Below, piece by piece: positions 1-48,808 of a stretch of 48,808 bases of DNA. Below the pieces are notes generated by a model, which saw nothing but the letters and a program-made list of their open reading frames with translations, was not told the origin of the DNA and did no database searches. The first letter of the stretch is position 1. Every line of letters starts with the position of its first letter. The position numbers and the translations under genes were made by a program. This stretch comes from a virus. Lineage: Duplodnaviria > Caudoviricetes. Location of the stretch: the IMG/VR virus record IMGVR_UViG_3300017766_004362, positions 1 through 48,808 of that record; one strand, given 5' to 3'.

Positions 1-120
1 CCCGCCACGGAGGCCGGAGGCTTGCCCATGACGCTCGAGGCCCGCCACGGAGGCCGGAGGCTTGCCCATGACGCTCGAGGCCCGCCACGGAGGCCGGAGG
101 CTTGCCCATGACGCTCGAGG
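1..120. repeat. Three exact tandem copies of a 40-bp unit at the contig start
   Basis: CCCGCCACGGAGGCCGGAGGCTTGCCCATGACGCTCGAGG at 1-40, 41-80 and 81-120, with no spacers. Confidence 0.95.
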
Positions 121-133
121 CGTGCCCGTACCC

Positions 134-837: not shown

Positions 838-1263
838 TCAGCCCCCTATAGGGCGTTTTCGTATACGCGCGCGAGCCAGTCTCACCCGGTTCGCCGGGGT
901 CGGTTCGCGCCGGTACGCATCGCGTGCCGAACGGTATTGAGCCGAGTCGACATCGAGGTCGTCGTCCGGTTCGATGTCGTCGAAGTCGATGGACGGGTCC
1001 GGTGGAGGGGAGTCGGAGGGGATCGAGCACGTCATCAAGTCCCGGTTCGCGGCGTTCTTGTCCCGGTACGACGACCGCCGCTCCTCGGTCGTCCATTCGG
1101 GACCGACGTCCCCTCGGAAGTCGCCGGCATAGTGCCGGTCGAGGAACGCCGCGAGCCACGCCTGCTCGTCGGGGCTGAGCTTCGTGAGGTAGTCCACGTC
1201 GACCCGCCATGCCACCGAGCGGGGGTAGCTCTTCGCCGACAGTGCCGCCTTCGGGTTCTTCAC
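838..1263 (-). CDS. Hypothetical phage protein
   Basis: GTG at 1263 overlaps the stop of 1260..1622; globular-looking sequence DVDYLTKLSPDEQAWLAAFLDRHY...YRDKNAANRDL. Confidence 0.65.
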   Translation of the reverse strand: MKNPKAALSAKSYPRSVAWRVDVDYLTKLSPDEQAWLAAFLDRHYAGDFRGDVGPEWTTEERRSSYRDKNAANRDLMTCSIPSDSPPPDPSIDFDDIEPDDDLDVDSAQYRSARDAYRREPTPANRVRLARARIRKRPIGG

Positions 1264-1622
1264 GCAGCCACCCGCACGTCGGCCCCGAGGATGTAGACGA
1301 ACTTCGGTCGACCTCTCTTCACCCGCACCTCTGTCAGTCGCTCGACGAGGTCCCCGTTCTCGACGAGCGGGGCCACGATGCGGCGCATGGTCGCTCTCGA
1401 GACGCCGAGCCTCGCCCCGAGCTTCGCGAGGGTGTCGTCGCCCTCGGCCACGCCCGTCAGGACCTCGGTCCGGTAGGCCCACCGACGCTCCTCCCGGTCG
1501 GCCGTGTCAACGACCCGCACGGACGGGGGTGCCGCGTCGGGGACGGTGACCTCCGCCAGGACCCGAGGGTCGAGGCCGAAGGCGGTCGCCACGAGGAGGT
1601 CGATGTCGTCCACGCGCCGCAC
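1260..1622 (-). CDS. Winged helix-turn-helix DNA-binding protein (putative transcription regulator)
   Basis: TLAKLGARLGVSRATMRRIVAPLVENGDLV...RGRPKFVY fits an HTH plus wing; transcribed divergently from the primase across the origin-like region. Confidence 0.7.
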   Translation of the reverse strand: MRRVDDIDLLVATAFGLDPRVLAEVTVPDAAPPSVRVVDTADREERRWAYRTEVLTGVAEGDDTLAKLGARLGVSRATMRRIVAPLVENGDLVERLTEVRVKRGRPKFVYILGADVRVAA

Positions 1623-1759
1623 CTTACCCGACCGCCACGAGGAGGTGAACTTTATTTACAGGAGCCTCCGACGACGACGTCCTTCCGCCCCTCGACACGG
1701 TCTTCGCCGGAAGCTCGTCGTTCTGCCAATCACTCTTTGGCAAGGATGCGTTTTGCCAA

Positions 1760-2180
1760 CGGACCGAGTGGACCAAGTGCAACCCGGTCCGAACACCCGC
1801 CACATCGCTGGCACGCGGCGGAGCACTATATATACTCCCCTTTTTTAAGCAGTATAGGGCCCAGCTTGGTCCTTGGTCCAAGCTGCGCGGAAGTGCTTTA
1901 TTTTCCAGCGGATCGTGTGGACCAAGTAGAATTCTACTTGGTCCAAATGTTGAGTTTACTTGGTCCAAATCCCACACTTACGTCCGGCCGTGGACCGAGT
2001 GGACCAAGCTGGACCAAGCTGGACCATGGTCTTTCAACCTCAGTTCAAACCACCTTGGACCAAGTGGACCAAGCTGGACCAAGGTCTTTCAACCTCGGTT
2101 CGTGTTTTAGGTCGCCTTCGGACCAAGTGGACCAAGCTGGACCAAGTGACTTTTCGACCCCGAAATCGACTTGGTTTAAC
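1760..2180. repeat. Iteron-like GGACCAAG(T/CT) array with AT-rich patch; probable replication origin
   Basis: More than 10 copies of (T)GGACC(A/G)AG in clusters at ~1761, 1991-2030, 2056-2085 and 2121-2148; inverted TTGGTCC copies at ~1867-1966; AT-rich CTATATATACTCCCCTTTTTTAAG at ~1825; directly upstream of the primase. Confidence 0.7.
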
Positions 2181-2357
2181 TCTATCCGTTTTTTCAGAGG
2201 GTCCGTTTCGTGGTGTCTTTTCCACCCCCGACCACCACCCCTTGGGGGTCGTGGCTTCGTCCTTGCCGACCTCGTGAACGATGCGGTACCGTCCCCGGGT
2301 GACCACGAACCGGCCGAGCGTGAGGGCGCGAAGCCGGTTCTCGACGACGAGGGACCC

Positions 2358-3401
2358 ATGACCGACCGGCCCGAAGTGCTCTACGCGGTGACCCTGTACC
2401 CGTCTCTATACGAGAGGGGCGGCATCCCGAAGACGTGGGCGTGGCCCCAGCTCGTCGAGCTCTTCGGCGAGTTCACCATCGCCGCGTCGAAGGATGCGGT
2501 CCCGGGCTTCGGACCCTACGCCTTGACCGACCGGCCGTGCGGACGCCCCGAGCACCCCTCGGTCCCGCACCGCTGCGACGCTCTGGTGGATGCGGTCACC
2601 CTCGCCGTGTTCGACGTGGACATGGGCGAGGACGACGCGGTCGCCGAGTGCTCGCGAAGGCTCATGCGCGACGGCATGGCCCACCTCTTCTACTCGACGC
2701 ACTCCTACCGGCCCGACGCCCTCGTCCCCAGCCTCCGCCTCGTCGTCCCGCTCCTGCGTCCCGTACCGGCCCATCAGTGGCGTTCGTTCCGCCAGGCCTT
2801 CCTCCGCACCTTCGCCGTGCCTGCGGACATCGCCAAGTGCGGGGGCTTGAGCCATTTCTACTACGCCCCGAGCCACCCGCCGGGCGTCGAGCCGCTGTTC
2901 GACTCGGTCGAAGGCCGACCCTTCGACCCTTCGCGCCTGCCGGTCACGGGTCGAGCGCCCCTCGTGACGACCTATGCCGTGCCCACCTTCGACGAGACGA
3001 CCGACCCCGAGGCCCTCGCCCTTCACCGCGAGGCCCTGACCTTGAAGGCCCGCCGGTTGTCGACCTCCCCGAAGGGCGAGAGCCGTGCCCGTGCCGCCGT
3101 CCTCGAGGCGGTCGTCGCCGGCCGGCCCCTCGCCGAGCACGGCTCGAGGAACGCCACGACCACCCGAGCGGCCTTCGACCTCGTGCGGCTCCTGCCCTCG
3201 GCCACCGCCGCCGAGGTCTTGGCCCTCCTCGCCCCGAGTACCAAGGCCATGCGGGACGAGGGCTCGAGCCTCACGCTAGAGACCGTCCGGCGCATGGTCG
3301 CCTCGGCGCATGCCAAGGTCGAAGCGGCCCGTGCTAGGGAATCCGAACTGGAAGCGTACCTGACCCGCCACCTGACCCGTACCGACCGAGGGACCCGATG
3401 A
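2358..3401 (+). CDS. AEP-type primase / primase-polymerase with helical (PriCT-like) C-terminal domain
   Basis: ATG 2358 with GAGGGA RBS; FDVD (DxD), YSTHS, LRLVVPL and FYYAPS motifs, then GSRNATTTRAAF; ATGA-coupled to the helicase. Confidence 0.75.
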   Translation: MTDRPEVLYAVTLYPSLYERGGIPKTWAWPQLVELFGEFTIAASKDAVPGFGPYALTDRPCGRPEHPSVPHRCDALVDAVTLAVFDVDMGEDDAVAECSRRLMRDGMAHLFYSTHSYRPDALVPSLRLVVPLLRPVPAHQWRSFRQAFLRTFAVPADIAKCGGLSHFYYAPSHPPGVEPLFDSVEGRPFDPSRLPVTGRAPLVTTYAVPTFDETTDPEALALHREALTLKARRLSTSPKGESRARAAVLEAVVAGRPLAEHGSRNATTTRAAFDLVRLLPSATAAEVLALLAPSTKAMRDEGSSLTLETVRRMVASAHAKVEAARARESELEAYLTRHLTRTDRGTR

Positions 3402-4801
3402 CCGACACCACCGCCCCTTCTCCCATGCCCGACGTGGACGACGCCGACTTCGCCCGGCTCGCCGAGGCCATCGAAGAGTTCGCCTACTCCGTGCCCCTCG
3501 AGAAGTTCGTCTACCGGCGAGGGAACCGCTGGCAACCGGACTCCCCGGTGTCCGACAAGGGCATCCGGCAGTTCCTCCTCGCCCGTCAGTATCCCCTCGA
3601 CCTCGTGGACATGGTGCTGAAGAAGGGTCTGTACCACCGGACCCTGTCGACCGACGTCGTCCCCGGCCAGCCGCCCATCGCACGGGACGAGTACGGCCAG
3701 CCCCTTCTCAATCTCTACACGCCTCCGGCTCACGAGCCCTCCGCCACCCCCGGCCCGATACCCCGCGTCGAGGTCCTGCTCCGGTGGCTGTGCGACGCGC
3801 CCATCGGTGGGAACGACGAGCAGGAGGACGGCCTCGCGTGGCTCTTCGGGTGGCTCGCCCAGAAGGTACAGAACCCCGCACTCCTCCCCGGAACCGCGCC
3901 CATCTTCGGTACGTCCCCCGGCGCGGGCAAAGGAACGCTCTTCCGCATCGTCGAGACCATGCTCGGGGCGCACAACTGCGCCATCGTCGAGCGGTCGCAC
4001 CTCGAGTCGAGGTTCACCCCTTGGGCGCGTGCGCTCTTCGTCATGGGTGACGAGGTCGTGAGCAACGACAATCTCAAGGACGTGTCCGAGCGGCTCAAGG
4101 TCCTCGTGACGAGCCACACGATGATGGTCGAGCAGAAGAATGTGAACGCGCTGCCGCTCCCGAACCGCAAAGCGTGGATGTTCGCCAGCAACGACCGGCT
4201 GAGCCCGCTCAAGATTGACGCCGACGACCGCCGGTACACCTACTTCCGCAACCACGCCCCGCTCACCGACGCCTACCGGGACCTTCTGAAGAGCTGCTAC
4301 ACGGACGACGGGTCGCAGTTCAACGACGGCTTCATCGACGAGATCCGGTATTTCTGGCGGGCGCTGCTCGACTTCGAGGTCGACGTCCGGTTCGTGAGCC
4401 AGCCCTACCACAACCAGGCTCGCGAGGAACTCATCGCGGTGAACGAACCGAGCCACGCGCTGTTCCTCAAGGCGCTCGAGGAGGACGGCATCGACGCCAT
4501 GCTCGACGCCATGCTCGACACACCGAGGGGCCTGAAGTTTCGAGGGGAAGCAGCACGTCGGGAATGGGACTTTGGTTCGCAGGGCGTCGCGAAGACCGCC
4601 GTATACGAAGCGTACCGGGCGTTCTGCGAGCAGGAAGGCAAGCACGCGCTCTCGGCCACCCGCTTCGGCCCCGCGCTTCGCCATGTCGACGGCTTCGCCG
4701 AGGTACGGAACCAAAGCACCACCGGCAAGAAGGTCCGGTGCTGGGTGCTCCCGCGCAAGACCTCGTTCATCACCGACGACCTCGACGCGCTGGCTTCTTG
4801 A
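3398..4801 (+). CDS. SF3/D5-like (DUF5906-type) primase-associated helicase
   Basis: Walker A GTSPGAGKGT, Walker B FVMGDE, ASN sensor and DDRR motif; C-terminal winged helix (VYEAYRAFCEQEG). Confidence 0.85.
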   Translation: MTDTTAPSPMPDVDDADFARLAEAIEEFAYSVPLEKFVYRRGNRWQPDSPVSDKGIRQFLLARQYPLDLVDMVLKKGLYHRTLSTDVVPGQPPIARDEYGQPLLNLYTPPAHEPSATPGPIPRVEVLLRWLCDAPIGGNDEQEDGLAWLFGWLAQKVQNPALLPGTAPIFGTSPGAGKGTLFRIVETMLGAHNCAIVERSHLESRFTPWARALFVMGDEVVSNDNLKDVSERLKVLVTSHTMMVEQKNVNALPLPNRKAWMFASNDRLSPLKIDADDRRYTYFRNHAPLTDAYRDLLKSCYTDDGSQFNDGFIDEIRYFWRALLDFEVDVRFVSQPYHNQAREELIAVNEPSHALFLKALEEDGIDAMLDAMLDTPRGLKFRGEAARREWDFGSQGVAKTAVYEAYRAFCEQEGKHALSATRFGPALRHVDGFAEVRNQSTTGKKVRCWVLPRKTSFITDDLDALAS

Positions 4802-9177: not shown

Positions 9178-9822
9178 ATGAAGCCGACCGAACTGAACGC
9201 ACTGCGCTACGAGCCCGCCCACGGTGATACGGACGCCGGTCTTCGTCGTCGTCCAACACCGGACTTCGACCCCGAGTGGAGGGTCATCGAACTGCCGCCG
9301 CCCATCGTGAACCACGACCTCGTGCAGGTCGTGAAGGAGATGCGGGAGAACCACCGGCTGCTCGAGGACCCGCAGATCCTCCGTATCCGGTGGGAGGATC
9401 GCGAGGACGTCGAGGCCATCTTCATCAAGGCCCTCGAGGAGATGGGGTTCCGTGTGCCGAAGACCGTGAGGGTCGAGGCCGAGAAACTCAGCGAGCAGCT
9501 CGCGACCATCGGGCTGCACTTCAAGGACAAGTTCAAGCGCATTCGGCCGAACCGCTGGCTTGAGGCGAACGAGCGGACGTTCCGGTTCCCCGAGGCCATC
9601 ACCGGCAAGAGCCCGTCGTACCCGTCGAACCACGCCCTCATCGGCGCGTTCCTAGGGGATTGGTTCGCGAAGAAGTACCCGCGAGCCAAGGACGCGATGG
9701 AGGTGCTCGGCAAGCAGATCGGCTGGAACCGTGTCTCCGCCGGCTTTCACTTCCCCGACGACTACGGCATGGGCCGGGTGCTCGCGAGGAAGCTGTGGCC
9801 GTTGTACCGAGGTGAAGCATGA
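9178..9822 (+). CDS. PAP2-superfamily phosphatase (acid phosphatase / haloperoxidase fold)
   Basis: K-x6-RP (KDKFKRIRP), SYPSNH (canonical PSGH) and R-x3-G-x-H-x3-D (RVSAGFHFPDD). Confidence 0.82.
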   Translation: MKPTELNALRYEPAHGDTDAGLRRRPTPDFDPEWRVIELPPPIVNHDLVQVVKEMRENHRLLEDPQILRIRWEDREDVEAIFIKALEEMGFRVPKTVRVEAEKLSEQLATIGLHFKDKFKRIRPNRWLEANERTFRFPEAITGKSPSYPSNHALIGAFLGDWFAKKYPRAKDAMEVLGKQIGWNRVSAGFHFPDDYGMGRVLARKLWPLYRGEA

Positions 9823-10508
9823 GCGCCATGCTTGTGGCCCTGACGCAGCCCCTCGGCCTTCCGTCCGAGGTCAAGACCGCCGAGGACCTCATCGTCTACT
9901 GCGCCCGGGTGTCGAACCCCGACAACCAGCTTTCCGTCGAAACCGGGGAGCACCTTCTCCGGTACTGCGTGAAGAAGGGGCATTGGTCGGTCTTTGAGAC
10001 CGCGAGCATGACCGTCGAGATTGAGACGACCCGCGCCATCTCCGCACAGCTCCTGCGGCACCGCTCCTTCACGTTCCAGGAGTTCTCGCAGAGGTACGCC
10101 TCCGTCCTCGGTCGTCCGCGTATCACCCAGGCTCGGATGCAGGATGCAAAGAACCGGCAGTCGTCCACGAAGTGCGAGTCGGAAGAGACGCAGTGGTGGT
10201 GGGAGCGCGCTCAAGCCAAGGCGTTTCACGAGGCCGAGGAAGCCTACGCCGACGCCATCGCACGCGGCATCGCGAAGGAGGTCGCTCGCATGGTGCTGCC
10301 CATGGCGACTCCGACGCGCCTCTACATGACCGGGTCGATCCGGTCGTGGATTCACTACCTCGAGCAGCGGCTTGACGTGGCGACGCAGCTCGAGCACCGG
10401 ATGGTCGCCCTCGACGTGGCGGACGTATTCTGCACGAATTTCCCCGTGATTTCCGAGGCCACGGGCTTGAAGCAGAAGTTGCTTGACGGCTGGAACGGCC
10501 TTCGGTAG
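9819..10508 (+). CDS. thyX: FAD-dependent thymidylate synthase
   Basis: YCARVS, GHWSVFE, RHRSFTFQEFSQRY signature and EVARMVLP. Confidence 0.95.
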   Translation: MSAMLVALTQPLGLPSEVKTAEDLIVYCARVSNPDNQLSVETGEHLLRYCVKKGHWSVFETASMTVEIETTRAISAQLLRHRSFTFQEFSQRYASVLGRPRITQARMQDAKNRQSSTKCESEETQWWWERAQAKAFHEAEEAYADAIARGIAKEVARMVLPMATPTRLYMTGSIRSWIHYLEQRLDVATQLEHRMVALDVADVFCTNFPVISEATGLKQKLLDGWNGLR

Positions 10509-11213: not shown

Positions 11214-11315
11214 ATGCTGGTAAAAATTTTCAGGGCGTTTTTCCCAAAGCCGTTGACCGAGACCGAACGTCGCTGGGCCACGTTGCTCGCCGTGTCGTGT
11301 GAGCGTGTGCGATGA
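11214..11315 (+). CDS. 33-aa ORF coupled to the polymerase
   Basis: CCGAGGGA RBS; stop overlaps the pol ATG (ATGA). Confidence 0.5.
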   Translation: MLVKIFRAFFPKPLTETERRWATLLAVSCERVR

Positions 11316-13360
11316 ACCTCGTCGCCTTCGATACCGAGACGCACCTTATCGAACCGGGGCTGCTCGCCCCGAAGCTCGTGTGCGTGTCCACCGCCACTGA
11401 CGAGGATTCTGCCCTCCTCGACCGCTACGATGGCACGGACTTCGTCGAGGATTGCTTGCGGAGCGAGGACACGGCCCTCGTCGGACACAACGTCGCCTAT
11501 GACCTCGGGGTCATGTGCGCTCGTCGAGCGAGCCTCATACCGCTGGTCTTCAAGGCTATGGACGAGGGCCGCGTCTTCGACACGAAGATTCGGCAGGAGC
11601 TGCTCGACATCGCTTCGGGCCGCAGCCAGCGCAACGGTGCCACGTTCGCCATGCGCGGCGGCGAGTGGGTCAAAGCCGCGTACTCTCTCGCCGGTCTCGC
11701 CGGTCAGTACCTCGGCAAGGACCGCTTCGCCGAGAAGGCGGACGCCGATGCGTGGCGCATGAGGTACGCGGAGCTCGACGACGTGCCGGTGGAGTCGTGG
11801 CCCGTCGAGGCGACGAAGTACGCACTGGAAGACGCCGAGGACACGCTCGCCATATTCCTCGCTCAGGGCGGACTCGGAGGCATTCAGCCCACCGAGCACG
11901 ACCAGGTCCGAGCGGCATGGGCGCTGCACCTCATGTCCATGTGGGGCGTGCGGACCGACCCGTCGGCCGTCGATGCGCTCGAGAAGAAGCTGCTCGAGGA
12001 GCAGGCGCGTCTTCGCAAGCGGGTCATTCAGTCCGGCCTCCTCGTTCCGAAGAAGCTGCCGAAGTCCGAGGAAAACGACGCCGAGTTCTGGTCTGAGGAA
12101 GTGAAGCGGAAGAAGGCCACAAAGAAGGACCTCCAGCGACCGATGGACGGGTCCGAAGGACCGGAAATCGAGTGGGAGAACGGGCAAGCCTACGTCGTGA
12201 CGCGAACTCAGGTCCCGTGCCGGTGGGCCAAGGACTCCAAGAAGCTGGAGATGTACACGCAGCGATACCTCGCGAGGCGTGGACAGGACCCTGAGCTGAC
12301 GGCTACGGGGCGCGTCTCGACGGCGAAGGACACGCTCGTGCAGTCCGGATCGAAGCTGCTCGAACTCGTGGCCGATGGCGGCGGCGTGGACAAGGTCCTC
12401 GGTACCTACGTTCCGGTGCTTCGGGACGGGACGAAGATTCCGGTCAACGCCCGGTTCAACGTCCTCGTGAACACGGCCCGCACCAGCTGTGAAAAACCAA
12501 ACCTGCAAAATTTACCTTCGGGCCGGAAGGTCGGCGGGACCCGCGAGTGCTTCGTGCCTCGCCCCGGCTACGTCTTCGTGAGCGTGGACTACGACACGCT
12601 CGAGCTTCGGGCGCTGGCCGAGGTGTGCCTCCTGCTCTTCGGCAAGAGCGAGATGGCCGCAGCCATCAACGCTGACCGGGACCTCCACAGCCAAGTCGGC
12701 GCGACCATGCTCGGGATGCAGTACGAGGAGGTCGAGAAGGGCAAGAAGGTCAAGGGCTCGCCGGCCAAGGTTGCCAGAGACGCAGCCAAGGTCTTCAACT
12801 TCGGCGCTCCCGGTGGCCTCGGGGCGGGAAGTCTCGTCGACTACGCCCGTGCCGGGTATGGCGTGACGCTGACCGAGACGCAGGCGCGGGAGATGAAGGC
12901 GCAGTGGCTGCGTGCGTGGCCCGAGATGACCTCGTACTTCCAGTGGATTAACGACCACGTCGGTTTGGGCGAGGCCACGCTCGTGCACCCCGTCACGGGC
13001 TTCGTCCGAGGGGACGTCGGCTACACGGACGGGTGCAACCACCTCTTCCAGCACTTGGCCGCTCAAGGAGCCAAGCGGGCGCTCTACCGTGCCGCGCGCG
13101 AGGCGTATGCCGAGCCGTCGAGTGCGTTCTTCGGATCGAGGCCGGTGGTCTTCGTGCATGATGAAATCATCGCCGAGGTGCCGGAAGGCAAGTTGCACGA
13201 GGCGGCGTTCCGGCTCTCCGAGATCATGGTCGAGGCCATGAGCACGGTCATCCGTCGTGTCAAAGTGTCGGCCTCGCCGGCGGCCATGCGGCGGTGGACG
13301 AAGGAAGCCACGGACAAGTACGAGAACGGCAAGCTCATTCCCTTTGAGGACGCCCGATGA
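11312..13360 (+). CDS. polA: Family A DNA polymerase with 3'-5' exonuclease domain
   Basis: Exo motifs FDTET, GHNVAYD and YALEDAE; PNLQN; motif A DYDTLELR; motif B RDAAKVFNFG; motif C VHDE. Confidence 0.95.
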   Translation: MNLVAFDTETHLIEPGLLAPKLVCVSTATDEDSALLDRYDGTDFVEDCLRSEDTALVGHNVAYDLGVMCARRASLIPLVFKAMDEGRVFDTKIRQELLDIASGRSQRNGATFAMRGGEWVKAAYSLAGLAGQYLGKDRFAEKADADAWRMRYAELDDVPVESWPVEATKYALEDAEDTLAIFLAQGGLGGIQPTEHDQVRAAWALHLMSMWGVRTDPSAVDALEKKLLEEQARLRKRVIQSGLLVPKKLPKSEENDAEFWSEEVKRKKATKKDLQRPMDGSEGPEIEWENGQAYVVTRTQVPCRWAKDSKKLEMYTQRYLARRGQDPELTATGRVSTAKDTLVQSGSKLLELVADGGGVDKVLGTYVPVLRDGTKIPVNARFNVLVNTARTSCEKPNLQNLPSGRKVGGTRECFVPRPGYVFVSVDYDTLELRALAEVCLLLFGKSEMAAAINADRDLHSQVGATMLGMQYEEVEKGKKVKGSPAKVARDAAKVFNFGAPGGLGAGSLVDYARAGYGVTLTETQAREMKAQWLRAWPEMTSYFQWINDHVGLGEATLVHPVTGFVRGDVGYTDGCNHLFQHLAAQGAKRALYRAAREAYAEPSSAFFGSRPVVFVHDEIIAEVPEGKLHEAAFRLSEIMVEAMSTVIRRVKVSASPAAMRRWTKEATDKYENGKLIPFEDAR

Positions 13361-14109
13361 AGGTCTACTTCGTCGGTCCTCCCGGCGGGTCCATGTCCCT
13401 CTACGAGCAGCAGATGAAAGGGCAGCGCGTTCTCTACTCGTATGCCACCTGCAAGTACATGGACGTTCCCGAAGGTGCTGCCGGATATTGCCTCGACTCC
13501 GGCGCATTCACGGTCTGGAAGAAGGGCAAGACCATCAACATGAGCAAGCTGATTGAGTGGTACGAGCGCCACGACACAGCCGACTTCAAGCTGATGCTCG
13601 ACGTCATCGGTGGCAGCGAGCAGGAGCAGAAGCACAACTTGAGTCTGATGGAGCGTGAGGGTCAGGACGTCGTGCCTGTGTTCCACGGGCCGGGTGCCGA
13701 GTCATGGGAGTGGTTCGACGAACTGTGCAAGCGATACCCTCTCGTCGCCATCGGGTCGTTGCTTCCCGACAACACTTCGGCCGCCGCTACGGCATGGCTC
13801 CAAGACGTCTTCGACCGGGTGTGTGACCCGTCTACCGGCCTGCCCAAGTACCGCATTCACGGTCTTCGCATGACATCGCGCATGGGCGACTTCCCCTTCG
13901 CGTCGGTCGATGGGTCGGCCTGGGTGACTGCCGCCAAGAACGGTCGTTTGCCGGTTCGTGGTGGCGGTCAGACCGATGCGCCCATCGGCTTCACCAGAGC
14001 GGAGTTGCAGGACATGTGGATTCGGGCGTGGACTCACGCCCCGAAGTGCGAGACCTATTTCCCCCGCAAGGAAAGCAAGCAGTTGTCCATGTTCAAGGAG
14101 GCACGATGA
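13357..14109 (+). CDS. tRNA-guanine-transglycosylase-like protein (DpdA-like DNA deazaguanine transglycosylase candidate)
   Basis: LDSGAF, LDVIG, PVFHG, AIGS, IHGL and SVDGSAW correspond to TGT-fold motifs; adjacent to queD. Confidence 0.75.
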   Translation: MKVYFVGPPGGSMSLYEQQMKGQRVLYSYATCKYMDVPEGAAGYCLDSGAFTVWKKGKTINMSKLIEWYERHDTADFKLMLDVIGGSEQEQKHNLSLMEREGQDVVPVFHGPGAESWEWFDELCKRYPLVAIGSLLPDNTSAAATAWLQDVFDRVCDPSTGLPKYRIHGLRMTSRMGDFPFASVDGSAWVTAAKNGRLPVRGGGQTDAPIGFTRAELQDMWIRAWTHAPKCETYFPRKESKQLSMFKEAR

Positions 14110-14546
14110 GACTCACGAAGCGGTACTACTTGGAGTGCGCCCATCAGCTTTCGGGTCTTCGCCCGAACCACAAGTGCATGAGGCTGCACGGTCACAACTA
14201 CATGTTCGACCTCACGGTCGTTCCCAAGATCAAGGCCGAGAAAGACGGCGAGGACTGGGAAGTGATGAAGAACGGGATGGTCGTGGACATCGAAGAACTT
14301 GACGTCATCGTGGCCCCCATCTTCAAGAAGATCGACCACACCTTCCTCAACGAGTCGTTGAAAGACGGCACACCCGCTGGGGCTATTGCCGCTGCTCAAC
14401 CCACGGCCGAGAACATCGCGACGTACCTGTGGGAAAGGCTCAAGTTGCTTCGCAAAGATCCTCGATTCTGCCTCGTGAACGTCCGTGTGTACGAAAACAA
14501 CGACATGTGGGTCGATGTTGGCATCGACTCGGGAGCTGCTCAATGA
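14106..14546 (+). CDS. queD: 6-carboxy-5,6,7,8-tetrahydropterin synthase (QueD/PTPS family)
   Basis: AH, C-x3-HGH (CMRLHGHNY), DHTFLN, PTAENIA and VYE; AAGGAG RBS. Confidence 0.92.
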   Translation: MRLTKRYYLECAHQLSGLRPNHKCMRLHGHNYMFDLTVVPKIKAEKDGEDWEVMKNGMVVDIEELDVIVAPIFKKIDHTFLNESLKDGTPAGAIAAAQPTAENIATYLWERLKLLRKDPRFCLVNVRVYENNDMWVDVGIDSGAAQ

Positions 14547-15634
14547 AGTTCGCCACCCAGAAGAAGACCCTGCTCGCGACCCTGCACAAGGCTGCGTCCG
14601 TCACCGAGCACAAGAACACGCTGCCCATCCTCGCGGCGGCGAAGCTCGAGACGCTGAGCAACGACCTCGTCGTTCAAGCCTACGACCTCGAGGTCGCCTA
14701 CACGGGCGCGGTGTCCGGTGAGACGACGAAGGAAGGGAAGGTCGCGGTCAACGCCAAGGCCCTCGTCGCCATCGTCGGTTCGCTGCCCGAGGGGAAGGTG
14801 GAGCTGGCCGTCGAGAAGACGAAGCTCGTGGTCCGGTCGGGTGACATCGAGTTCAAGCTCGCGACCTTGCCCGTCGAGGAGTACCCCGCGGTGCCCGAGC
14901 CGAAGGACGGCGTCACGTTCCCCGTGAAGACCGAGGCCCTGCGTGCGACGTTCGAGCGCGTGGCCTACGCGGTGTCGTTCGACGAGACCCGCTACACCAT
15001 CAACGGCACGTTCCTCGAGGCGTCGAGCGGGGCCCTGAAGGCCACGACCACGGACGGGCATCGTCTAGCACAGCACGTCGTCGAGGTGGCGCGGGCGGAA
15101 GACACGGGCGGCGGTGTCATCGTCTCGCGCAAGACGGCTGCGGTCCTGCTCAAGGCCCTCGACGGGAAGACCGAGGCGTGGGACCTGACGGTGAGCGAGA
15201 ACACCATCAACATCTGCTCGGAGAGCGAGCACATCCAGGCCCGTCTCATCGACGGCCAGTTCCCTCAGTACGAGGCCGTCATCCCGAAGACCGAGGGTCC
15301 GGGGGCGTCGTTCGATAGGAAGGCCCTGCTCGCGGTCATGGGCCGGATGAAGATCGTGAACGAGAGCGTGGACTTCCGGGTCGAGGACGGGCGCATGACG
15401 CTCTCGACCATAGATCCGTTCGACGGCGCGACCGCGACCGAGTGGTTCCCGGTCACGCCCGAGGTCACGAAGTGCAAGTTCCGCCTGAACGGCGCGTACC
15501 TGCGCGAGACGCTCGGTTCGTGGACGTGCGACCACGTCACGGTGCACTTGCCGGCGGACGACCTCACGCCCATCCTCGTGGTGAACGGCGAGGACGCGAA
15601 GGCATTCTGCGTCATCATGCCCATGCGGAGCTAG
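14543..15634 (+). CDS. dnaN: DNA polymerase III beta sliding clamp
   Basis: TLPILA, YDLEV, EEYP, DETRYTING, TTDGHRLA, RLIDGQFPQYEAVIP and C-terminal VIMPMR; full ~363-aa length. Confidence 0.93.
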   Translation: MKFATQKKTLLATLHKAASVTEHKNTLPILAAAKLETLSNDLVVQAYDLEVAYTGAVSGETTKEGKVAVNAKALVAIVGSLPEGKVELAVEKTKLVVRSGDIEFKLATLPVEEYPAVPEPKDGVTFPVKTEALRATFERVAYAVSFDETRYTINGTFLEASSGALKATTTDGHRLAQHVVEVARAEDTGGGVIVSRKTAAVLLKALDGKTEAWDLTVSENTINICSESEHIQARLIDGQFPQYEAVIPKTEGPGASFDRKALLAVMGRMKIVNESVDFRVEDGRMTLSTIDPFDGATATEWFPVTPEVTKCKFRLNGAYLRETLGSWTCDHVTVHLPADDLTPILVVNGEDAKAFCVIMPMRS

Positions 15635-15637
15635 GCG

Positions 15638-16849
15638 ATGCGCTACCTGTCCGTGTGCAGCGGCGTCGAAGCCGCATCCGTAGCGTGGCACGACCTCGGC
15701 TGGACGCCGGTCGCGTTCAGCGAGATCGAACCCTTCCCGAGCGCGATCCTCAAGCACCGTTTCCCCGACGTCCCGAACCTCGGGGACATGACGAAGTACA
15801 AGGAGTGGCCCATTGAGCCAGGCACAGTTGACGTTCTCGTGGGCGGAACCCCCTGCCAGTCGTTCTCCGTCGCCGGTCTCCGCAAGGGACTCGACGACCC
15901 CCGAGGCAACCTCATGCTCGTCTACCTCGGGTTGGCAGAGCATTTGCGAGTCCCTTGGCTGGTCTGGGAAAACGTCCCCGGTGTCCTGTCGTCGAACGGA
16001 GGACGGGATTTTGGAACCTTCCTCGGGGCGCTGGGCCAACTCAATTATCAGTTCGCCGTGCGGGTCTTGGATGCTCAATACTTCGGAGTTCCCCAGCGAC
16101 GCCGTCGAGTCTTCGTTGTCGCGAGTCTTGGTGACCGGCCCCATCCCGCCAAGGTTCTTTTTGAGCCCGAAAGCCTGCGCGGGGATTCTGCGAAGAGCGG
16201 CAAAGCGCGGAAAGGCCCTGCCCGAGGCGCTCGACCGGGCGCTGAGAGCGGTGGCCGAGTCGGCGTAGACATCGTCGGCACTTTGTGCAGCGACACACAC
16301 CCCGGCGCGTACTCGGGACAGGACGCCTACACGGGACGGCTGGTGCCGCATATCCAGCCCGTGTGCGCCACCGGCCATCGGACCCACGCTCTGACGGTCT
16401 CGGACGGTGCCACCGAAGACGGCACGGGTAGAGGGACGCTGATAGTGCCGGCGATTGCATTCCACCCTACGCAAGACCCCATCTCCTCGGTCGAGGTCAA
16501 GCACGCGCTCGGCACGGGGTCGAAGGGCGGGTGTGCGACGGCAGCGGTGGCGACGGTCACCGGCACCCTTGGCGCGAGAGCCTCGTCGGGAGGCGGCTTC
16601 TCGACGGATTTCGAGGTCGCGGGTGGGTTGCAACCCACGCCCACTATGCAGGTCCGAAGACTCCTTCCGATAGAATGTGAGTTTTTACAGGGTTTTCCTG
16701 CGGATTGGACGCTCATCCCTTGGAAGGGCAAGCCCGCGAGCGAGTGTCCCGACGGCCCTCGGTATCGCGCGATGGGGAACAGCATGGCCGTACCCGTGAT
16801 GCGATGGATCGGCACGAGGCTCGACGCTCTCGTGAAGGGGACGCTGTGA
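15638..16849 (+). CDS. DNA (cytosine-5)-methyltransferase
   Basis: Motif I CSGVE, IV GGTPCQSFS, VI WENVPG, VIII PQRRRRVF, IX RRLLPIECEFLQGFP and X GNSM. Confidence 0.95.
   Translation: MRYLSVCSGVEAASVAWHDLGWTPVAFSEIEPFPSAILKHRFPDVPNLGDMTKYKEWPIEPGTVDVLVGGTPCQSFSVAGLRKGLDDPRGNLMLVYLGLAEHLRVPWLVWENVPGVLSSNGGRDFGTFLGALGQLNYQFAVRVLDAQYFGVPQRRRRVFVVASLGDRPHPAKVLFEPESLRGDSAKSGKARKGPARGARPGAESGGRVGVDIVGTLCSDTHPGAYSGQDAYTGRLVPHIQPVCATGHRTHALTVSDGATEDGTGRGTLIVPAIAFHPTQDPISSVEVKHALGTGSKGGCATAAVATVTGTLGARASSGGGFSTDFEVAGGLQPTPTMQVRRLLPIECEFLQGFPADWTLIPWKGKPASECPDGPRYRAMGNSMAVPVMRWIGTRLDALVKGTL
15813..16268 (+). CDS. Overprinted +1-frame ORF inside the MTase (resembles alternative-frame MTase beta polypeptides)
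   Basis: AAGGAG 7 nt before TTG 15813; 151 codons; C-terminal FFLSPKACAGILRRAAKRGKALPEALDRAL. Confidence 0.6.
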   Translation: MSQAQLTFSWAEPPASRSPSPVSARDSTTPEATSCSSTSGWQSICESLGWSGKTSPVSCRRTEDGILEPSSGRWANSIISSPCGSWMLNTSEFPSDAVESSLSRVLVTGPIPPRFFLSPKACAGILRRAAKRGKALPEALDRALRAVAESA

Positions 16850-17367
16850 TCCCGACCCGCACCTACCCCCACCTCCTCGCCCTCGACCCGGGCCTTCGAG
16901 GGTGCGGTCTCGCGTACTTCGACGCGAATGGCGTACTCCTGACCGCGAAGTACCTGAAGAACCCCGTGAAGAAGGGCGGCGGACCCGAGGCGTGGCTCGG
17001 GTTCGTCGAAGCCATGCCCGTGGACCTGTGGCGCGTCGAGCACTTCGTGAGCGAGTACCCGCAGGTCTACCGTGCCGGTGCGTCGAAAGGCGACCCGGAC
17101 GACCTGCTCCAGCTCGCGAGCGTCGTCGCCGTGTTCACCGCGAACGTGGTCGCGAAGGACTACCTCGCGGTGCGTCCGAGGGAATGGAAGGGATCGGTGC
17201 CGAAGGACGTGCATCACGCGAGGCTCGTGAAGGCGCTCGACGACCACGAGAAGCTCATCGTCGAGGAGTCCGCGCCGCCGAGTCTGAGGCACAATGTGCT
17301 GGACGCAGTCGGGATAGGGCGATATTTTTTCCGAACGCATCGTAGGGGTGCGTCGAGGGCAACATGA
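16846..17367 (+). CDS. RuvC-like Holliday junction resolvase
   Basis: LLALDPGLRGCGLAY, VSEYP, PREWKG and HNVLDAVGIG; GTGA overlap with the MTase stop. Confidence 0.8.
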   Translation: MIPTRTYPHLLALDPGLRGCGLAYFDANGVLLTAKYLKNPVKKGGGPEAWLGFVEAMPVDLWRVEHFVSEYPQVYRAGASKGDPDDLLQLASVVAVFTANVVAKDYLAVRPREWKGSVPKDVHHARLVKALDDHEKLIVEESAPPSLRHNVLDAVGIGRYFFRTHRRGASRAT

Positions 17368-18586: not shown

Positions 18587-19300
18587 ATGGCCAAGAAGAC
18601 CGTCACCGCTCTCAACAAGACCCGCTGCCTCGTCTACATCCGCGTCTCGACCGACGAGCAGCACCTCGGCCCCGAGGCTCAGGCCGAGGCTTGCCGCGTG
18701 TACGCCGAGCGCCTCGGCATGACCGTCGTCGAGACCTTCCGTGACATCGGCGTGTCGGGTGCCGCGCCGCTGCACGAGTGCCCCGGGCTTCAGTCCGCGG
18801 TCGACTCCCTCGAGGCCCACGACGCGGGCGTCCTGCTCGTCGCCAAGCGCGACCGTCTCGCCCGCGACGTCATGAAGGTCGGCATGGTCACGCAGCGCGT
18901 CGAGTCGGCGGGCGCGACCGTCATCTCCGCGGACGGCATCCCCGAGTCCAACGAGCCGACCGCCGTGCTCATGCGGCAGATCATCGACGCCTTCAGCCAG
19001 TTCGAGCGCAGCCTCATCATCTCGCGCACGAAGGGCGCTCTCGCCGCCAAGAAGGCCAAGGGTGAGGTCGCCGGCAACATTCCTCTGGGCTTCGTGCGCG
19101 ACGGCAACAAGCTCGTGGTCGACGAGGCCGGTCGTGCCCAGCACCGCGAGGTCAAGGCCCGTGTTCAGGCGCTCCTCGCCGAGGGCAAGACCTACCAGAA
19201 CGTGGTAGACCTCTTCGCCGCCGAGAAGGTCGCCTACCTCAACTTCACCGAGTGGAAGTTCCGCTCGCAGGTCGCTCGCGTCCTCGAGCGCGACCTCTAG
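18587..19300 (+). CDS. Serine recombinase (resolvase-type catalytic domain plus short recombinase domain)
   Basis: YIRVST, D-x-GVSG, RDRLAR, FSQFERSLIISRT and GNIPLGF. Confidence 0.92.
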   Translation: MAKKTVTALNKTRCLVYIRVSTDEQHLGPEAQAEACRVYAERLGMTVVETFRDIGVSGAAPLHECPGLQSAVDSLEAHDAGVLLVAKRDRLARDVMKVGMVTQRVESAGATVISADGIPESNEPTAVLMRQIIDAFSQFERSLIISRTKGALAAKKAKGEVAGNIPLGFVRDGNKLVVDEAGRAQHREVKARVQALLAEGKTYQNVVDLFAAEKVAYLNFTEWKFRSQVARVLERDL

Positions 19301-20452: not shown

Positions 20453-21001
20453 ATGGCGACCATCGAGCTGTGGACGGGGCCGATGTTCAGCGGCAAGACC
20501 ACGGGGCTGCTCGACCGGGTGTACCAGTTCCAGGAGGCCGGTGTGCCGGTGCTGCTGCTCAAGCACGCCTCGGACACGCGCTACGACTCGGGACACGCGG
20601 TGACGACGCACTCGGGCGTGTCTCTCGCGGCTCGGCCCGCGTGGGCGGTCTTCGACCTCGAGCAGGCCCTCAACGCCGCACCGAACACGAAGGTCGTTGC
20701 CATCGACGAGGTGCAGTTCTTTTCGCACGGCATCACGGGCTTCGTTCGCAGCGCCCGTGAGCGGGGCGTCACGGTCCTTCTCGCCGGCCTCGACCGGACA
20801 TCGACCGCCGAATACTTCGGGCAGATGCCGGGACTACTGGCCCATGCGGACGTCGTTCACAAGCTCTCAAGCGAGTGCGCGTGCGGCCTGAAGGCGTACC
20901 AGACCCGCCGGAAGAAGGACGCGCCCGAGGGGTTCGTGGGTGGGTCGGAGCGGTACGAGAGCGTGTGCTGGGGGTGCTGGTACCGAGGGGTAGAGCGATG
21001 A
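20453..21001 (+). CDS. tdk: Thymidine kinase
   Basis: GPMFSGKTT, DTRY, IDEVQFF, AGLD; Zn cysteines CACG and YESVCWGC. Confidence 0.93.
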   Translation: MATIELWTGPMFSGKTTGLLDRVYQFQEAGVPVLLLKHASDTRYDSGHAVTTHSGVSLAARPAWAVFDLEQALNAAPNTKVVAIDEVQFFSHGITGFVRSARERGVTVLLAGLDRTSTAEYFGQMPGLLAHADVVHKLSSECACGLKAYQTRRKKDAPEGFVGGSERYESVCWGCWYRGVER

Positions 21002-26560: not shown

Positions 26561-27355
26561 CTACCCACCCTTCTTCTTGAACAGGTCGTCTTGCAGGCCC
26601 TGCCCGCGGGACCCATACGAGATGAGACCCGTCCCGAGAGCCGTAGCACCGGCCGCGCCCATGGAAGGTCCGACCTGACCGAACTGGCCCTGAGCCTGTC
26701 CGGCACCCGACGCGAGATTGGCCTTGTTCGACGCCACATTGAGCCGGGAGCTCGCCTCGAAGAGCCGCTTCTGGTCCTCGGCCTGCGCCCGACGCTCGGC
26801 CTCACCGTAAGCCTGACCACGGACCTGCGACCCGAGGCCACCGAGGCCCTGCATGGCTTGGAACGCTCGACGCTGAGCCTGCGCCGCCGTCTCGAGTCCC
26901 GCCTGTCCGGCACGGTTCGCCGCGGCCTGACCGGCGGCTTGCTGCATGGCGATGCGGGCACCGGAGTCGAGGACACCCTGCCGCTGAAGCTGGCCCTGAA
27001 GGGCCGCTTGCTGGCTCGAGGCCATGGCCGCGGTCTGCGACTGAATGTTCCGAAGCGCGGCCTCTTCCTCGGGCGTGTACCCGCCGGCCGCGACCTGCTG
27101 CATTCGTCGCAGGGCCTCGCGCTGGGCCGCGACCGCCTCGGGAGCCTCGGCCTCGGCGCTCAGGCCCGAGGTGGCGAGTTCCTGCGACGCATAGTCGCTG
27201 ATGACGCCCTCGGCCTCGGGGCCGTACTTCTCAACGGCGGCTTGGATGAGTTCGTTGGCCTTGTCGGCGTTGCCCGAGGCCATGTACGCGGCAACCATGT
27301 TGCCGACCGCACCGATCCCCGCACCGAGAGCCATCACTTCAAGTCCGGTCAACAT
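26561..27355 (-). CDS. Internal virion / DNA transfer protein (putative)
   Basis: Gly-rich hydrophobic N-terminus (ALGAGIGAVG) and Gln/Ala/Gly-rich body, typical of small podovirus ejection proteins. Confidence 0.6.
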   Translation of the reverse strand: MLTGLEVMALGAGIGAVGNMVAAYMASGNADKANELIQAAVEKYGPEAEGVISDYASQELATSGLSAEAEAPEAVAAQREALRRMQQVAAGGYTPEEEAALRNIQSQTAAMASSQQAALQGQLQRQGVLDSGARIAMQQAAGQAAANRAGQAGLETAAQAQRRAFQAMQGLGGLGSQVRGQAYGEAERRAQAEDQKRLFEASSRLNVASNKANLASGAGQAQGQFGQVGPSMGAAGATALGTGLISYGSRGQGLQDDLFKKKGG

Positions 27356-48730: not shown

Positions 48731-48744
48731 AAACGGCCGGAACA

Positions 48745-48808
48745 CTCGACCTCGACCTCGACCTCGACCTCGACCTCGACCTCGACCTCGACCTCGACCT
48801 CGACCTCG
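48745..48808. repeat. (CTCGAC)n hexamer tandem repeat running off the contig end
   Basis: About 10.7 perfect copies. Confidence 0.95.

What the first reader, a model, noticed from the sequence alone, without database searches (positions are those of the whole stretch)
11312..17367. Candidate clamp-tethered DNA-modification module: polA - TGT-like - queD - dnaN - C5-MTase - ruvC
Seen: six genes joined by ATGA/GTGA overlaps or a 3-bp gap. The TGT-like protein ends ...RKESK-QLSMF-KEAR (14080-14094), a full-length beta clamp is encoded two genes downstream, and the overprinted MTase ORF begins QAQLTF. Established: QL[S/D]LF and QxxLxF are bacterial beta-clamp-binding motifs, and phage DpdA-type TGT homologues insert 7-deazaguanines into DNA. 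Inference: the phage recruits both a base-exchange enzyme and a cytosine MTase to its own sliding clamp, so nascent DNA is modified right behind the fork. I am not aware of a clamp-coupled deazaguanine plus 5mC module having been described. No clamp loader is encoded, so a host loader would be needed.
Basis: partly seen in the sequence, partly recalled or inferred. Interest (0 to 1): 0.85.

Follow-up and report, generated by a model that had tools for sequence, protein, structure and literature searches.

The report
Clamp-docking tags on phage DNA modifiers
This phage carries two optional DNA-modifying genes on either side of its own sliding-clamp gene; one enzyme ends in a clamp-docking-type tag that recurs across its family and the other gene hides a second protein that starts with a weaker version, so the enzymes likely ride a host or phage clamp to mark newly copied DNA, although binding is untested.

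Summary
The six genes, overlaps and both motifs are as described. They are not a fixed module: relatives join polA-dnaN-ruvC directly, and contigs with this dnaN allele lack dpdA-queD or the methyltransferase at exact joints. The QLSMF tail is real at family level: QxxLF/QxxMF ends 14 of 150 distant DpdA representatives against 8 of 1,349 background ORFs, and phage 9g DpdA ends LQDLF. It also ends all 80 Epa33-like DpdAs, and none of 44 such genomes searched encodes a clamp, so the host clamp is the usual target. A complex model gave weak support only (0.54, control 0.01). The nested methyltransferase ORF is a real gene, homologous to phage MM1 ORF14; MM1-type copies start with perfect QMSLF-type pentamers, but this phage's QLTFS is imperfect and the QAQLTF register is not conserved. 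dpdA beside a phage clamp and polymerase is already annotated in 9g and CAjan. Ten literature searches found no report of the tags; this scan noted the idea before on other phage DNA. Verdict: new variant of a known kind, binding untested.

The parts
11312..13360 (+). Family A DNA polymerase with 3'-5' exonuclease; core gene; no canonical clamp motif
   Evidence: present in all four relatives at 61-76% identity
13357..14109 (+). DpdA1-type DNA-guanine transglycosylase (250 aa); accessory
   Evidence: phrog_887; TGT fold; E 3e-17 to 9g DpdA; absent in L170, L171
14080..14094 (+). QLSMF, predicted beta-clamp-binding pentapeptide on a low-confidence tail
   Evidence: tail pLDDT 55 versus mean 93; family enrichment; weak complex support
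14106..14546 (+). QueD-type 6-carboxytetrahydropterin synthase with CxxxHGH; travels with dpdA
   Evidence: PF01242; signature as given in PMC10516641; skipped with dpdA at joint 13356-14543
14543..15634 (+). Full-length phage beta sliding clamp (363 aa) with intact peptide pocket; core gene
   Evidence: present in all four relatives
15638..16849 (+). C5-cytosine methyltransferase, main frame, with motifs IX and X in frame; accessory
   Evidence: PF00145 two stretches; absent in L005, L170, L171; skipped at joint 15625-16854 in three runs
15813..16268 (+). Nested +1 ORF (151 aa), MM1 ORF14-type beta chain: QLTF start, about 100 residues predicted disordered, helical C-terminal end
   Evidence: open in 60 of 60 non-redundant genes versus 0.88 expected; profile hits MM1 ORF14 at E 3e-29; model
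15819..15836 (+). QAQLTF; only QLTF is conserved; imperfect candidate clamp motif
16846..17367 (+). RuvC-like nuclease, probable Holliday junction resolvase; core gene
   Evidence: Atlas look-alikes; no HMM hit; present in L005, L170, L171

Best explanation
polA, dnaN and the RuvC-like gene form the phage's core replication operon, into which dpdA-queD and the methyltransferase are inserted as independent optional genes, and the DpdA likely uses its QLSMF tail to dock on any beta clamp loaded on phage DNA, host or phage, so that it would swap guanine for a 7-deazaguanine base on newly copied DNA. Shown: gene identities, independent gain and loss, conservation of the tail, an intact pocket on the phage clamp, no loader found. 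Inferred: the base is preQ0 or a relative made mostly by host enzymes, with phage QueD boosting one step; the clamp is loaded by the host DnaX complex; the purpose is protection from restriction. For the methyltransferase, the nested beta chain is predicted to be an adaptor (N-terminal tag, long flexible linker, helical end that would bind the catalytic chain). That step is about even odds for the family and less for this phage's QLTFS.
For: Independent indels: L170 and L171 have polA-dnaN-ruvC adjacent; L004 (with dpdA-queD and MTase) and L171 (without) share 96% DnaN and 90% PolA; contigs skip 13356-14543 in 2 of 4 runs laid and 15625-16854 in 3 of 4, and one 3,453-nt contig keeps dpdA-queD but lacks the MTase. 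Tail: strict Q..[LM]F in the last 15 residues of 14 of 150 representatives at under 50% identity (shuffled 0.3, internal window 0), 15 of 119 listed homologues, 8 of the 29 closest, versus 8 of 1,349 background ORFs (Fisher p 9e-10). The linker length varies while the motif stays. Isolates: 9g LQDLF, CAjan VMELF, Epa33 QAELSL, BTP1 MQLQLAV, RHEph04 EQRLF, K251 TQGLF. A relaxed pattern matches 80 of 80 Epa33-like tails and 0 of 44 such records searched encode a clamp (0 of 33 at least 90% complete). Pocket residues TDGHRL, P241 and MPxR are invariant in 33 clamps. Complex of DnaN with DpdA residues 213-250: score 0.54, best control 0.01, weak support; the mark was reached by 116 of 157 solved and 2 of 215 mismatched pairs, and at 0.60 or under by 18 solved and both mismatches; runs agree in at least 91% of contacts, partner pLDDT at least 47; clamp-peptide complexes are textbook, so the pass may be from memory. 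Nested ORF: 36 of 63 MM1-type genes start with a strict pentamer versus 1.0 expected, coded over a different main-frame position than this subfamily's QLxF (35 of 60 versus 1.3), and Omega has QLDLF. Several 6-bp palindromes are absent from the genome (CACGTG 0 versus 12.6, CTGCAG 0 versus 12.7 expected).
Against: No binding or modification data. Most DpdA representatives lack the strict motif: 68 of 150 have a different W..RG tail and only 22 of the other 82 match a relaxed Q pattern. Sonali and the Rosebush-type ItsyBitsy1 DpdA have no motif, yet Rosebush DNA is about 28% modified (PMC6884629), so the tag is not needed everywhere. Many of the closest homologues end PxLFPDL without Gln. Homologue counts are not independent: Q tails cluster on the tree (26 changes versus 47 shuffled) and the 80 Epa33-like loci are 74-100% identical. 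PolA has no canonical motif, so what the phage clamp serves is unknown. Nested ORF: position 5 follows codon usage (W22 S14 L10 versus 21.5, 10.7, 13.8), 10 of 60 read QSTF, 24 of 63 MM1-type genes and P1 dmt have no motif. Phages with DpdA but no pathway can be barely modified (7-11: 50 per million; Orion: none) and folE and queC were not found here. The one earlier phage case, T4 alpha-glucosyltransferase with gp45, failed a recent retest.
Confidence: 0.55

Rival explanations
1. One reading: a dedicated module in which the phage's own clamp recruits both DpdA and the methyltransferase, giving coupled deazaguanine plus 5mC marking behind the phage fork, with preference for the phage clamp over the host's.
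For: Both modifiers flank dnaN with coupled start and stop codons; L004 repeats the order with a 42% identical clamp; the pocket is intact; weak complex support 0.54 versus control 0.01; dpdA lies by a phage clamp in four isolates whose DpdAs end in xxLF.
Against: Genes are not co-inherited; tags persist in clamp-less phages; 9g DpdA modifies DNA in E. coli without the phage clamp (PMC6884629); the Queuovirinae-type clamps have ATNN in place of TDGHRL; QLTFS is an imperfect motif.
Confidence: 0.15
2. The tags do not bind clamps. The genes sit here because the replication operon gives the right expression timing, and the LF tails serve another role such as dimer contact or degradation, or are remnants.
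For: Most DpdA representatives lack the strict motif; heavily modified Rosebush-type phage has none; T4 precedent failed; the nested ORF start is constrained by the overlapping catalytic frame and position 5 is unselected.
Against: About 17-fold odds over background ORFs and no internal matches; pentamer and hexamer forms, both clamp-type, alternate between DpdA clades; the nested-ORF motif recurs at different main-frame positions.
Confidence: 0.25
3. The tail binds a clamp but this DpdA makes little or no modified DNA, because the phage carries only queD; the cassette is a low-activity or decaying accessory. This is not exclusive of the best explanation.
For: No folE or queC in this record, no QueE-like hit among the ORFs scanned; singleton DpdA phages 7-11 and Orion are barely or not modified; cassette is often missing in the population.
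Against: Catalytic Asp and His residues are invariant; dpdA and queD are 91% and 88% conserved in L004 and intact in L005; the record is about 80% complete; hosts often supply preQ0.
Confidence: 0.25

Closest known systems
Queuovirinae deazaguanine clusters (Enterobacteria phage 9g, Escherichia phage CAjan; DpdA1)
   Same: Homologous DpdA (E 3e-17, 2e-16; His196 kept); dpdA beside an annotated beta clamp and DNA polymerase; DpdA tail ends in xxLF; no loader subunit found.
   Different: They carry folE, queD, queE and queC, an unrelated polymerase and a shorter clamp with an altered pocket; here only queD, an A-family polymerase, a full bacterial-type clamp and a C5-MTase. The papers read contain no mention of 'clamp'.
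Bacterial beta-clamp clients with QL[S/D]LF motifs, including phage Mu C
   Same: Terminal short motif on a flexible tail; consensus as in PMC9690074; Mu C shows a phage protein using the host clamp through such a motif.
   Different: Clients there are polymerases, repair proteins and a transcription activator with measured binding; here a base-exchange enzyme, binding only predicted.
Streptococcus phage MM1 ORF13/ORF14 and M.EcoHK31I alpha/beta
   Same: Second protein nested in the +1 frame of a C5-MTase gene; profile match to MM1 ORF14 E 3e-29.
   Different: In M.EcoHK31I the beta chain supplies motif IX (PMC2836561); here motif IX is in the main frame. Homology to the EcoHK31I beta chain was not tested. 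No paper found that notes a clamp motif at the beta N-terminus.
T4 alpha-glucosyltransferase with gp45; DNMT1 with PCNA
   Same: Same idea: a DNA-modifying enzyme recruited by a sliding clamp.
   Different: Different clamps and enzymes; the T4 interaction was not reproduced in a 2025 preprint.
Thermocrinis Octopus Spring virus (PolA plus beta clamp, no loader)
   Same: Phage with A-family polymerase and beta clamp but no obvious loader (PMC7689252).
   Different: The passages read describe no deazaguanine genes and no coupling to modification.

Membership tests
Phage DpdA1 transglycosylases | TGT-type TIM-barrel fold | tested here: met
   Model pLDDT 93; top PDB match archaeosine TGT 1iq8, E 7e-5, TM 0.59; top viral matches annotated as TGT
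Phage DpdA1 transglycosylases | Detectable homology to 9g DpdA, with His196 | tested here: met
   BLASTP E 3e-17; H168 aligns with 9g H196; family profile hits 9g and CAjan at about 1e-69; criterion from PMC6884629
Phage DpdA1 transglycosylases | Three active-site Asp and the base-reading His | tested here: met
   D47, D82, H110, D185 invariant in 61 rows; matched by motif order, not superposition, to D95, D130, H181, D256 of S. Montevideo DpdA
Phage DpdA1 transglycosylases | Inserts a 7-deazaguanine into DNA | not testable with these tools
   Needs LC-MS or nanopore
Phage preQ0 clusters (9g, CAjan groups) | folE, queD, queE, queC co-encoded | tested here: not met
   queD only; no folE or queC; record about 80% complete
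QueD | CxxxHGH signature, not the LxxxHRHxF of DpdL | tested here: met
   CMRLHGH; PF01242 above cut-off, TIGR03367 70 bits below its 89.25 cut-off
Bacterial beta clamp (DnaN) | Three beta domains and conserved peptide pocket | tested here: met
Bacterial beta clamp (DnaN) | Forms a ring loaded on DNA by a clamp loader | not testable with these tools
   No delta or delta-prime in G000, G093 (complete), G094
Beta-clamp-binding motif (DpdA tail) | Matches consensus, terminal, flexible, conserved above chance | tested here: met
Beta-clamp-binding motif (DpdA tail) | Binds the clamp pocket | tested here: inconclusive
   Weak support, 0.54 versus control 0.01, no interface given
Beta-clamp-binding motif (nested ORF start) | Q-x-x-[LM]-F pentamer or Q-x-x-L-x-F hexamer conserved | tested here: inconclusive
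   Perfect in 36 of 63 MM1-type genes; QLxF with unselected fifth residue in this subfamily; hexamer register 2 of 120
MM1 ORF13/ORF14-type nested C5-MTase | Conserved +1 ORF inside the catalytic region, homologous to ORF14 | tested here: met
   phrog_16143 hits 52 of 53 aligned members but not this one
M.EcoHK31I-type heterodimer | Beta chain carries motif IX | tested here: not met
   Motif IX-like RRLLPIECEFLQGFP is in the main frame (motif label recalled); definition
M.EcoHK31I-type heterodimer | Sequence homology of the beta chains; beta needed for activity | not tested
   No EcoHK31I record was fetched
RuvC resolvases | Family profile match | tested here: inconclusive
   No HMM or PDB hit; Atlas look-alikes named RuvC, one cluster with PF02075 in 12% of members

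The most novel reading that the evidence does not exclude
Phage DNA-modifying enzymes widely use beta-clamp tags as a plug-in socket: DpdA1 transglycosylases, including the model enzyme of phage 9g, carry the tag on their tail, and thousands of phage C5-methyltransferase genes hide a second protein whose job is to tether the enzyme to the clamp. In this phage both plug into an operon that supplies its own clamp, so new DNA is marked twice behind the fork.
Probability: 0.35. Interest if true: 0.85.

Novelty: new variant of a known kind. Interest (0 to 1): 0.6.

Why it matters
Phage DNA must be modified between replication and packaging, and how post-replicative enzymes reach enough sites in time is open: the one proposed phage case of clamp coupling (T4 alpha-glucosyltransferase with gp45) failed a recent retest. 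A five-residue tag on DpdA of 9g and CAjan, which already work in laboratory E. coli, makes the question testable with one small deletion. It would also give a function to the nested beta chain found in many phage methyltransferase genes (5,278 hits among 8,000 candidates scored), and explain why modifier genes swap so freely beside replication genes.

Tried and rejected
Locus searches with the TGT-like protein gave nothing in viral contigs or genome contigs and two non-self loci in metagenome contigs, so gene context for most close homologues, including the PxLFPDL type, is unknown and motif type could not be correlated with clamp presence inside this clade. QDDLF near the end of ORF 26561-27355 lies in the virion gene arm and was not pursued. 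A split between ParB-partnered and tag-bearing DpdAs was considered: Sonali has ParB and no tag, but AH07 has both, so it is not supported. A canonical clamp motif on PolA, helicase, SSB-like or RuvC-like proteins was sought and not found. An excess of tags among amino-methyltransferases in the background set was not shown with my crude classifier (strict 1 of 18 versus 7 of 1,331), although 6 of 8 background hits look like DNA-modifying enzymes by eye. DpdL instead of QueD rejected by signature. No tRNA genes. No RNA holder listed. The nested-ORF model is low confidence (pTM 0.29) and was not fold-searched. PMC11855218 concerns a different nested ORF (HNH). Binding of the nested chain to the methyltransferase or to a clamp was not modelled; the single complex job went to the DpdA tail.
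Full report
Setting. The window is a whole virus record of 48,808 bases, linear, about 80% complete, with a replication arm on the + strand and terminase, portal and virion genes on the - strand. The best holders among public runs are freshwater metagenomes.

Observation. The six ORFs, their junctions (ATGA three times, a 3-bp gap, GTGA) and both motifs are at the stated places. PolA, QueD, a full three-domain beta clamp and a C5-methyltransferase are confirmed by profiles. The last gene has no profile hit and is RuvC-like only by Atlas look-alikes. Of 19 replication-arm proteins, only the TGT-like protein and the nested ORF match a clamp-motif pattern.

The TGT-like protein. Its model is confident (mean pLDDT 93) except the last ten residues (55). 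The best solved match is archaeosine TGT (E 7e-5). It aligns with DpdA of phages 9g and CAjan (E 3e-17, 2e-16) and keeps 9g His196, which DpdA2 lacks. D47, D82, H110 and D185 are invariant in 61 diverse rows and fall in the order of the active-site residues of Salmonella DpdA; that mapping is by motif, not superposition. It is a DpdA1. QueD has the CxxxHGH signature. No folE or queC was found, so the base would come largely from the host (inference). DpdA-only phages can be barely modified, so the amount of modification here is open.

Is the tail more than chance? The strict pattern Q..[LM]F lies in the last 15 residues of 8 of the 29 closest homologues, 15 of 119 listed homologues (120 of 227 hits were listed; one QueD-bearing row dropped) and 14 of 150 representatives at under 50% identity (best 150 of 10,088). 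Shuffled tails give 0.2 to 0.4, an internal window gives 0, and background ORFs from the fetched loci give 8 of 1,349 (Fisher p 9e-10 for the representatives). The linker before the motif varies in length. Isolates show it too: 9g LQDLF, CAjan VMELF, Epa33 QAELSL, BTP1 MQLQLAV, RHEph04 EQRLF, K251 TQGLF, AH07 QFQLAV. It is not universal: 68 of 150 representatives end in a W..RG tail, Q tails cluster on the tree, many close homologues end PxLFPDL, and Sonali and ItsyBitsy1 have no motif although Rosebush DNA is heavily modified.

Whose clamp? The phage DnaN belongs to a clade 40-50% identical among itself and about 33% to cellular clamps, with the pocket residues invariant (pocket identity recalled from E. 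coli beta). A complex of DnaN with DpdA residues 213-250 scored 0.54 against a best control of 0.01: weak support. The mark was reached by 116 of 157 solved complexes and 2 of 215 mismatches, and at 0.60 or under by 18 solved and both mismatches; contacts agree in at least 91%, partner pLDDT is at least 47, no interface was given, and clamp-peptide complexes are well known, so the pass may be from memory. All 80 Epa33-like DpdAs end in a clamp-type motif by a relaxed pattern (related at 74-100%), yet none of 44 such records searched (42 of the 80, plus Epa33 and BTP1) encodes a clamp, including 33 at least 90% complete. In those phages only the host clamp is available. No loader subunit was found in this record or in a complete relative.

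Is it a module? No. L004 repeats polA-dpdA-queD-dnaN-MTase; L005 has dpdA-queD, another ORF, dnaN and ruvC without the MTase; L170 and L171 have polA-dnaN-ruvC adjacent, and the complete genome of L170 has no DpdA anywhere. L004 and L171 share 96% DnaN and 90% PolA yet differ by the cassette. Contigs from 4 runs of 4 studies laid on the region skip exactly dpdA-queD (13356 to 14543, two runs) or the MTase (15625 to 16854, three runs), and one contig keeps dpdA-queD but not the MTase. The clamp is core; the modifiers are independent passengers. dpdA next to a phage clamp and polymerase is also annotated in 9g, CAjan, RHEph04 and K251.

The nested ORF. Of 80 related MTase loci, 77 could be located by script and all had the +1 frame open for 139-164 codons. 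In 60 non-redundant genes it is open in all, against 0.88 expected from synonymous recoding, and QLxF is present in 35 against 1.3; 48 of 62 have a start codon behind a ribosome-binding-like site. These genes are related, so the counts are not independent. The profile matches the annotated nested ORF14 of Streptococcus phage MM1 (E 3e-29, same +1 frame), a lead taken from an earlier scan note. ORF14 starts MTSQQYQMTLF. In 63 non-redundant MM1-type genes (two of 81 loci not located; one adapter-contaminated row left in) 36 start with a strict pentamer against 1.0 expected, coded over a different stretch of the main frame; mycobacteriophage Omega has QLDLF. A motif that moves between positions suggests selection on the peptide. 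Against: 24 of the 63 and P1 dmt have none; in this phage's subfamily the fifth residue follows codon usage, 10 of 60 read QSTF, and the QxQLxF register occurs in 2 of 120. The first 101 residues are modelled without confident structure and the end is helical, which fits a tether (inference). None of 50 of the 80 MTase records searched encodes a clamp.

Mechanism. Most likely the host loader places clamps on replicating phage DNA; DpdA docks by QLSMF on whichever beta is there and exchanges guanine for host-derived preQ0 or a relative on new duplex; the methyltransferase may be tethered likewise through its nested chain. Absent 6-bp palindromes fit restriction pressure. Shown: identities, indels, conservation. 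Inferred: binding, loading, product, purpose.

Literature. Ten full-text searches of an open-access library turned up no report of clamp motifs on DpdA or on nested methyltransferase chains; most hits were seen as listings only, subscription papers are not covered and no supplements were read, so figure or supplement remarks may be missed. Read: PMC10516641, parts 2-4 of 7; passages of PMC6884629, PMC10164549, PMC2836561, PMC11855218, PMC7689252, PMC9690074, PMC13229309, PMC7736820, PMC7824862, 10.1101/2025.01.04.631326, 10.1101/2025.10.09.681413 and 10.64898/2025.12.06.692756; term counts for PMC7544227 and PMC10484667 (no 'clamp'). Precedents for the principle are DNMT1-PCNA, Mu C on the host clamp and the contested T4 case. 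Earlier notes of this scan reached the same ideas on other phage DNA; they are not independent evidence.

Verdict. Observation confirmed; interpretation partly supported. Every part is a known kind; the likely new element is the docking tag, which is family-wide rather than special to this phage. New variant of a known kind, interest 0.6.

Noticed in passing
window 14543-15634; L004, L005, L170, L171: DnaN is only 41-44% identical to relatives whose PolA is 61-76% and whose DpdA is 85-91% identical, so clamp alleles appear to be swapped or to evolve fast.
   Followed up: partly
window about 15350-15375 (DnaN residues 270-277): All 25 phage-clade clamps aligned lack four residues of the SNEKxRG loop present in the 8 cellular-type clamps; from memory this loop lies at the dimer interface opened by the loader.
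   Followed up: no
window about 12045-12225 (PolA residues 245-305): Lysine-rich PolA stretch with a conserved DLQPALDG-like core in five relatives; from memory it lies where T7 polymerase binds its processivity factor. A non-canonical clamp contact is possible.
   Followed up: partly
L005:4092-4610; run X9 contig at window 14515-14543: An extra ORF of about 160-170 aa sits between queD and dnaN in L005, with no Pfam hit; it looks like a GNAT/Mom-type enzyme by eye. A 491-nt insertion lies at the same junction in one contig.
   Followed up: partly
L170:8300-9126: polA is interrupted by about 825 bases holding a 193-aa ORF, possibly an intron with a homing nuclease.
   Followed up: no
window 1-125 and about 48735-48808: A 41-bp unit repeated three times opens the contig and a (CTCGAC)n run closes it; may be assembly ends.
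   Followed up: no
window 1209-3401 and 3398-4801: Primase-related and D5-like helicase regions are two ORFs joined by an ATGA overlap.
   Followed up: no
window 26561-27355 (-): A virion-arm ORF ends QDDLFKKKGG; probably chance.
   Followed up: no
background ORFs in L006-L173: 6 of 8 background proteins with a strict terminal motif look like DNA methyltransferases or other DNA-modifying enzymes by eye.
   Followed up: partly
L086, L087, L261, L262 clamp genes: Clamps of 9g, CAjan, RHEph04 and K251 have ATNN where bacterial clamps have TDGH and lack the MPMR end, so their peptide pocket is altered.
   Followed up: partly
window 9178-10508, 18587-19300, 20453-21001: PAP2 phosphatase, ThyX, a serine resolvase and thymidine kinase are shared with the relatives.
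   Followed up: no
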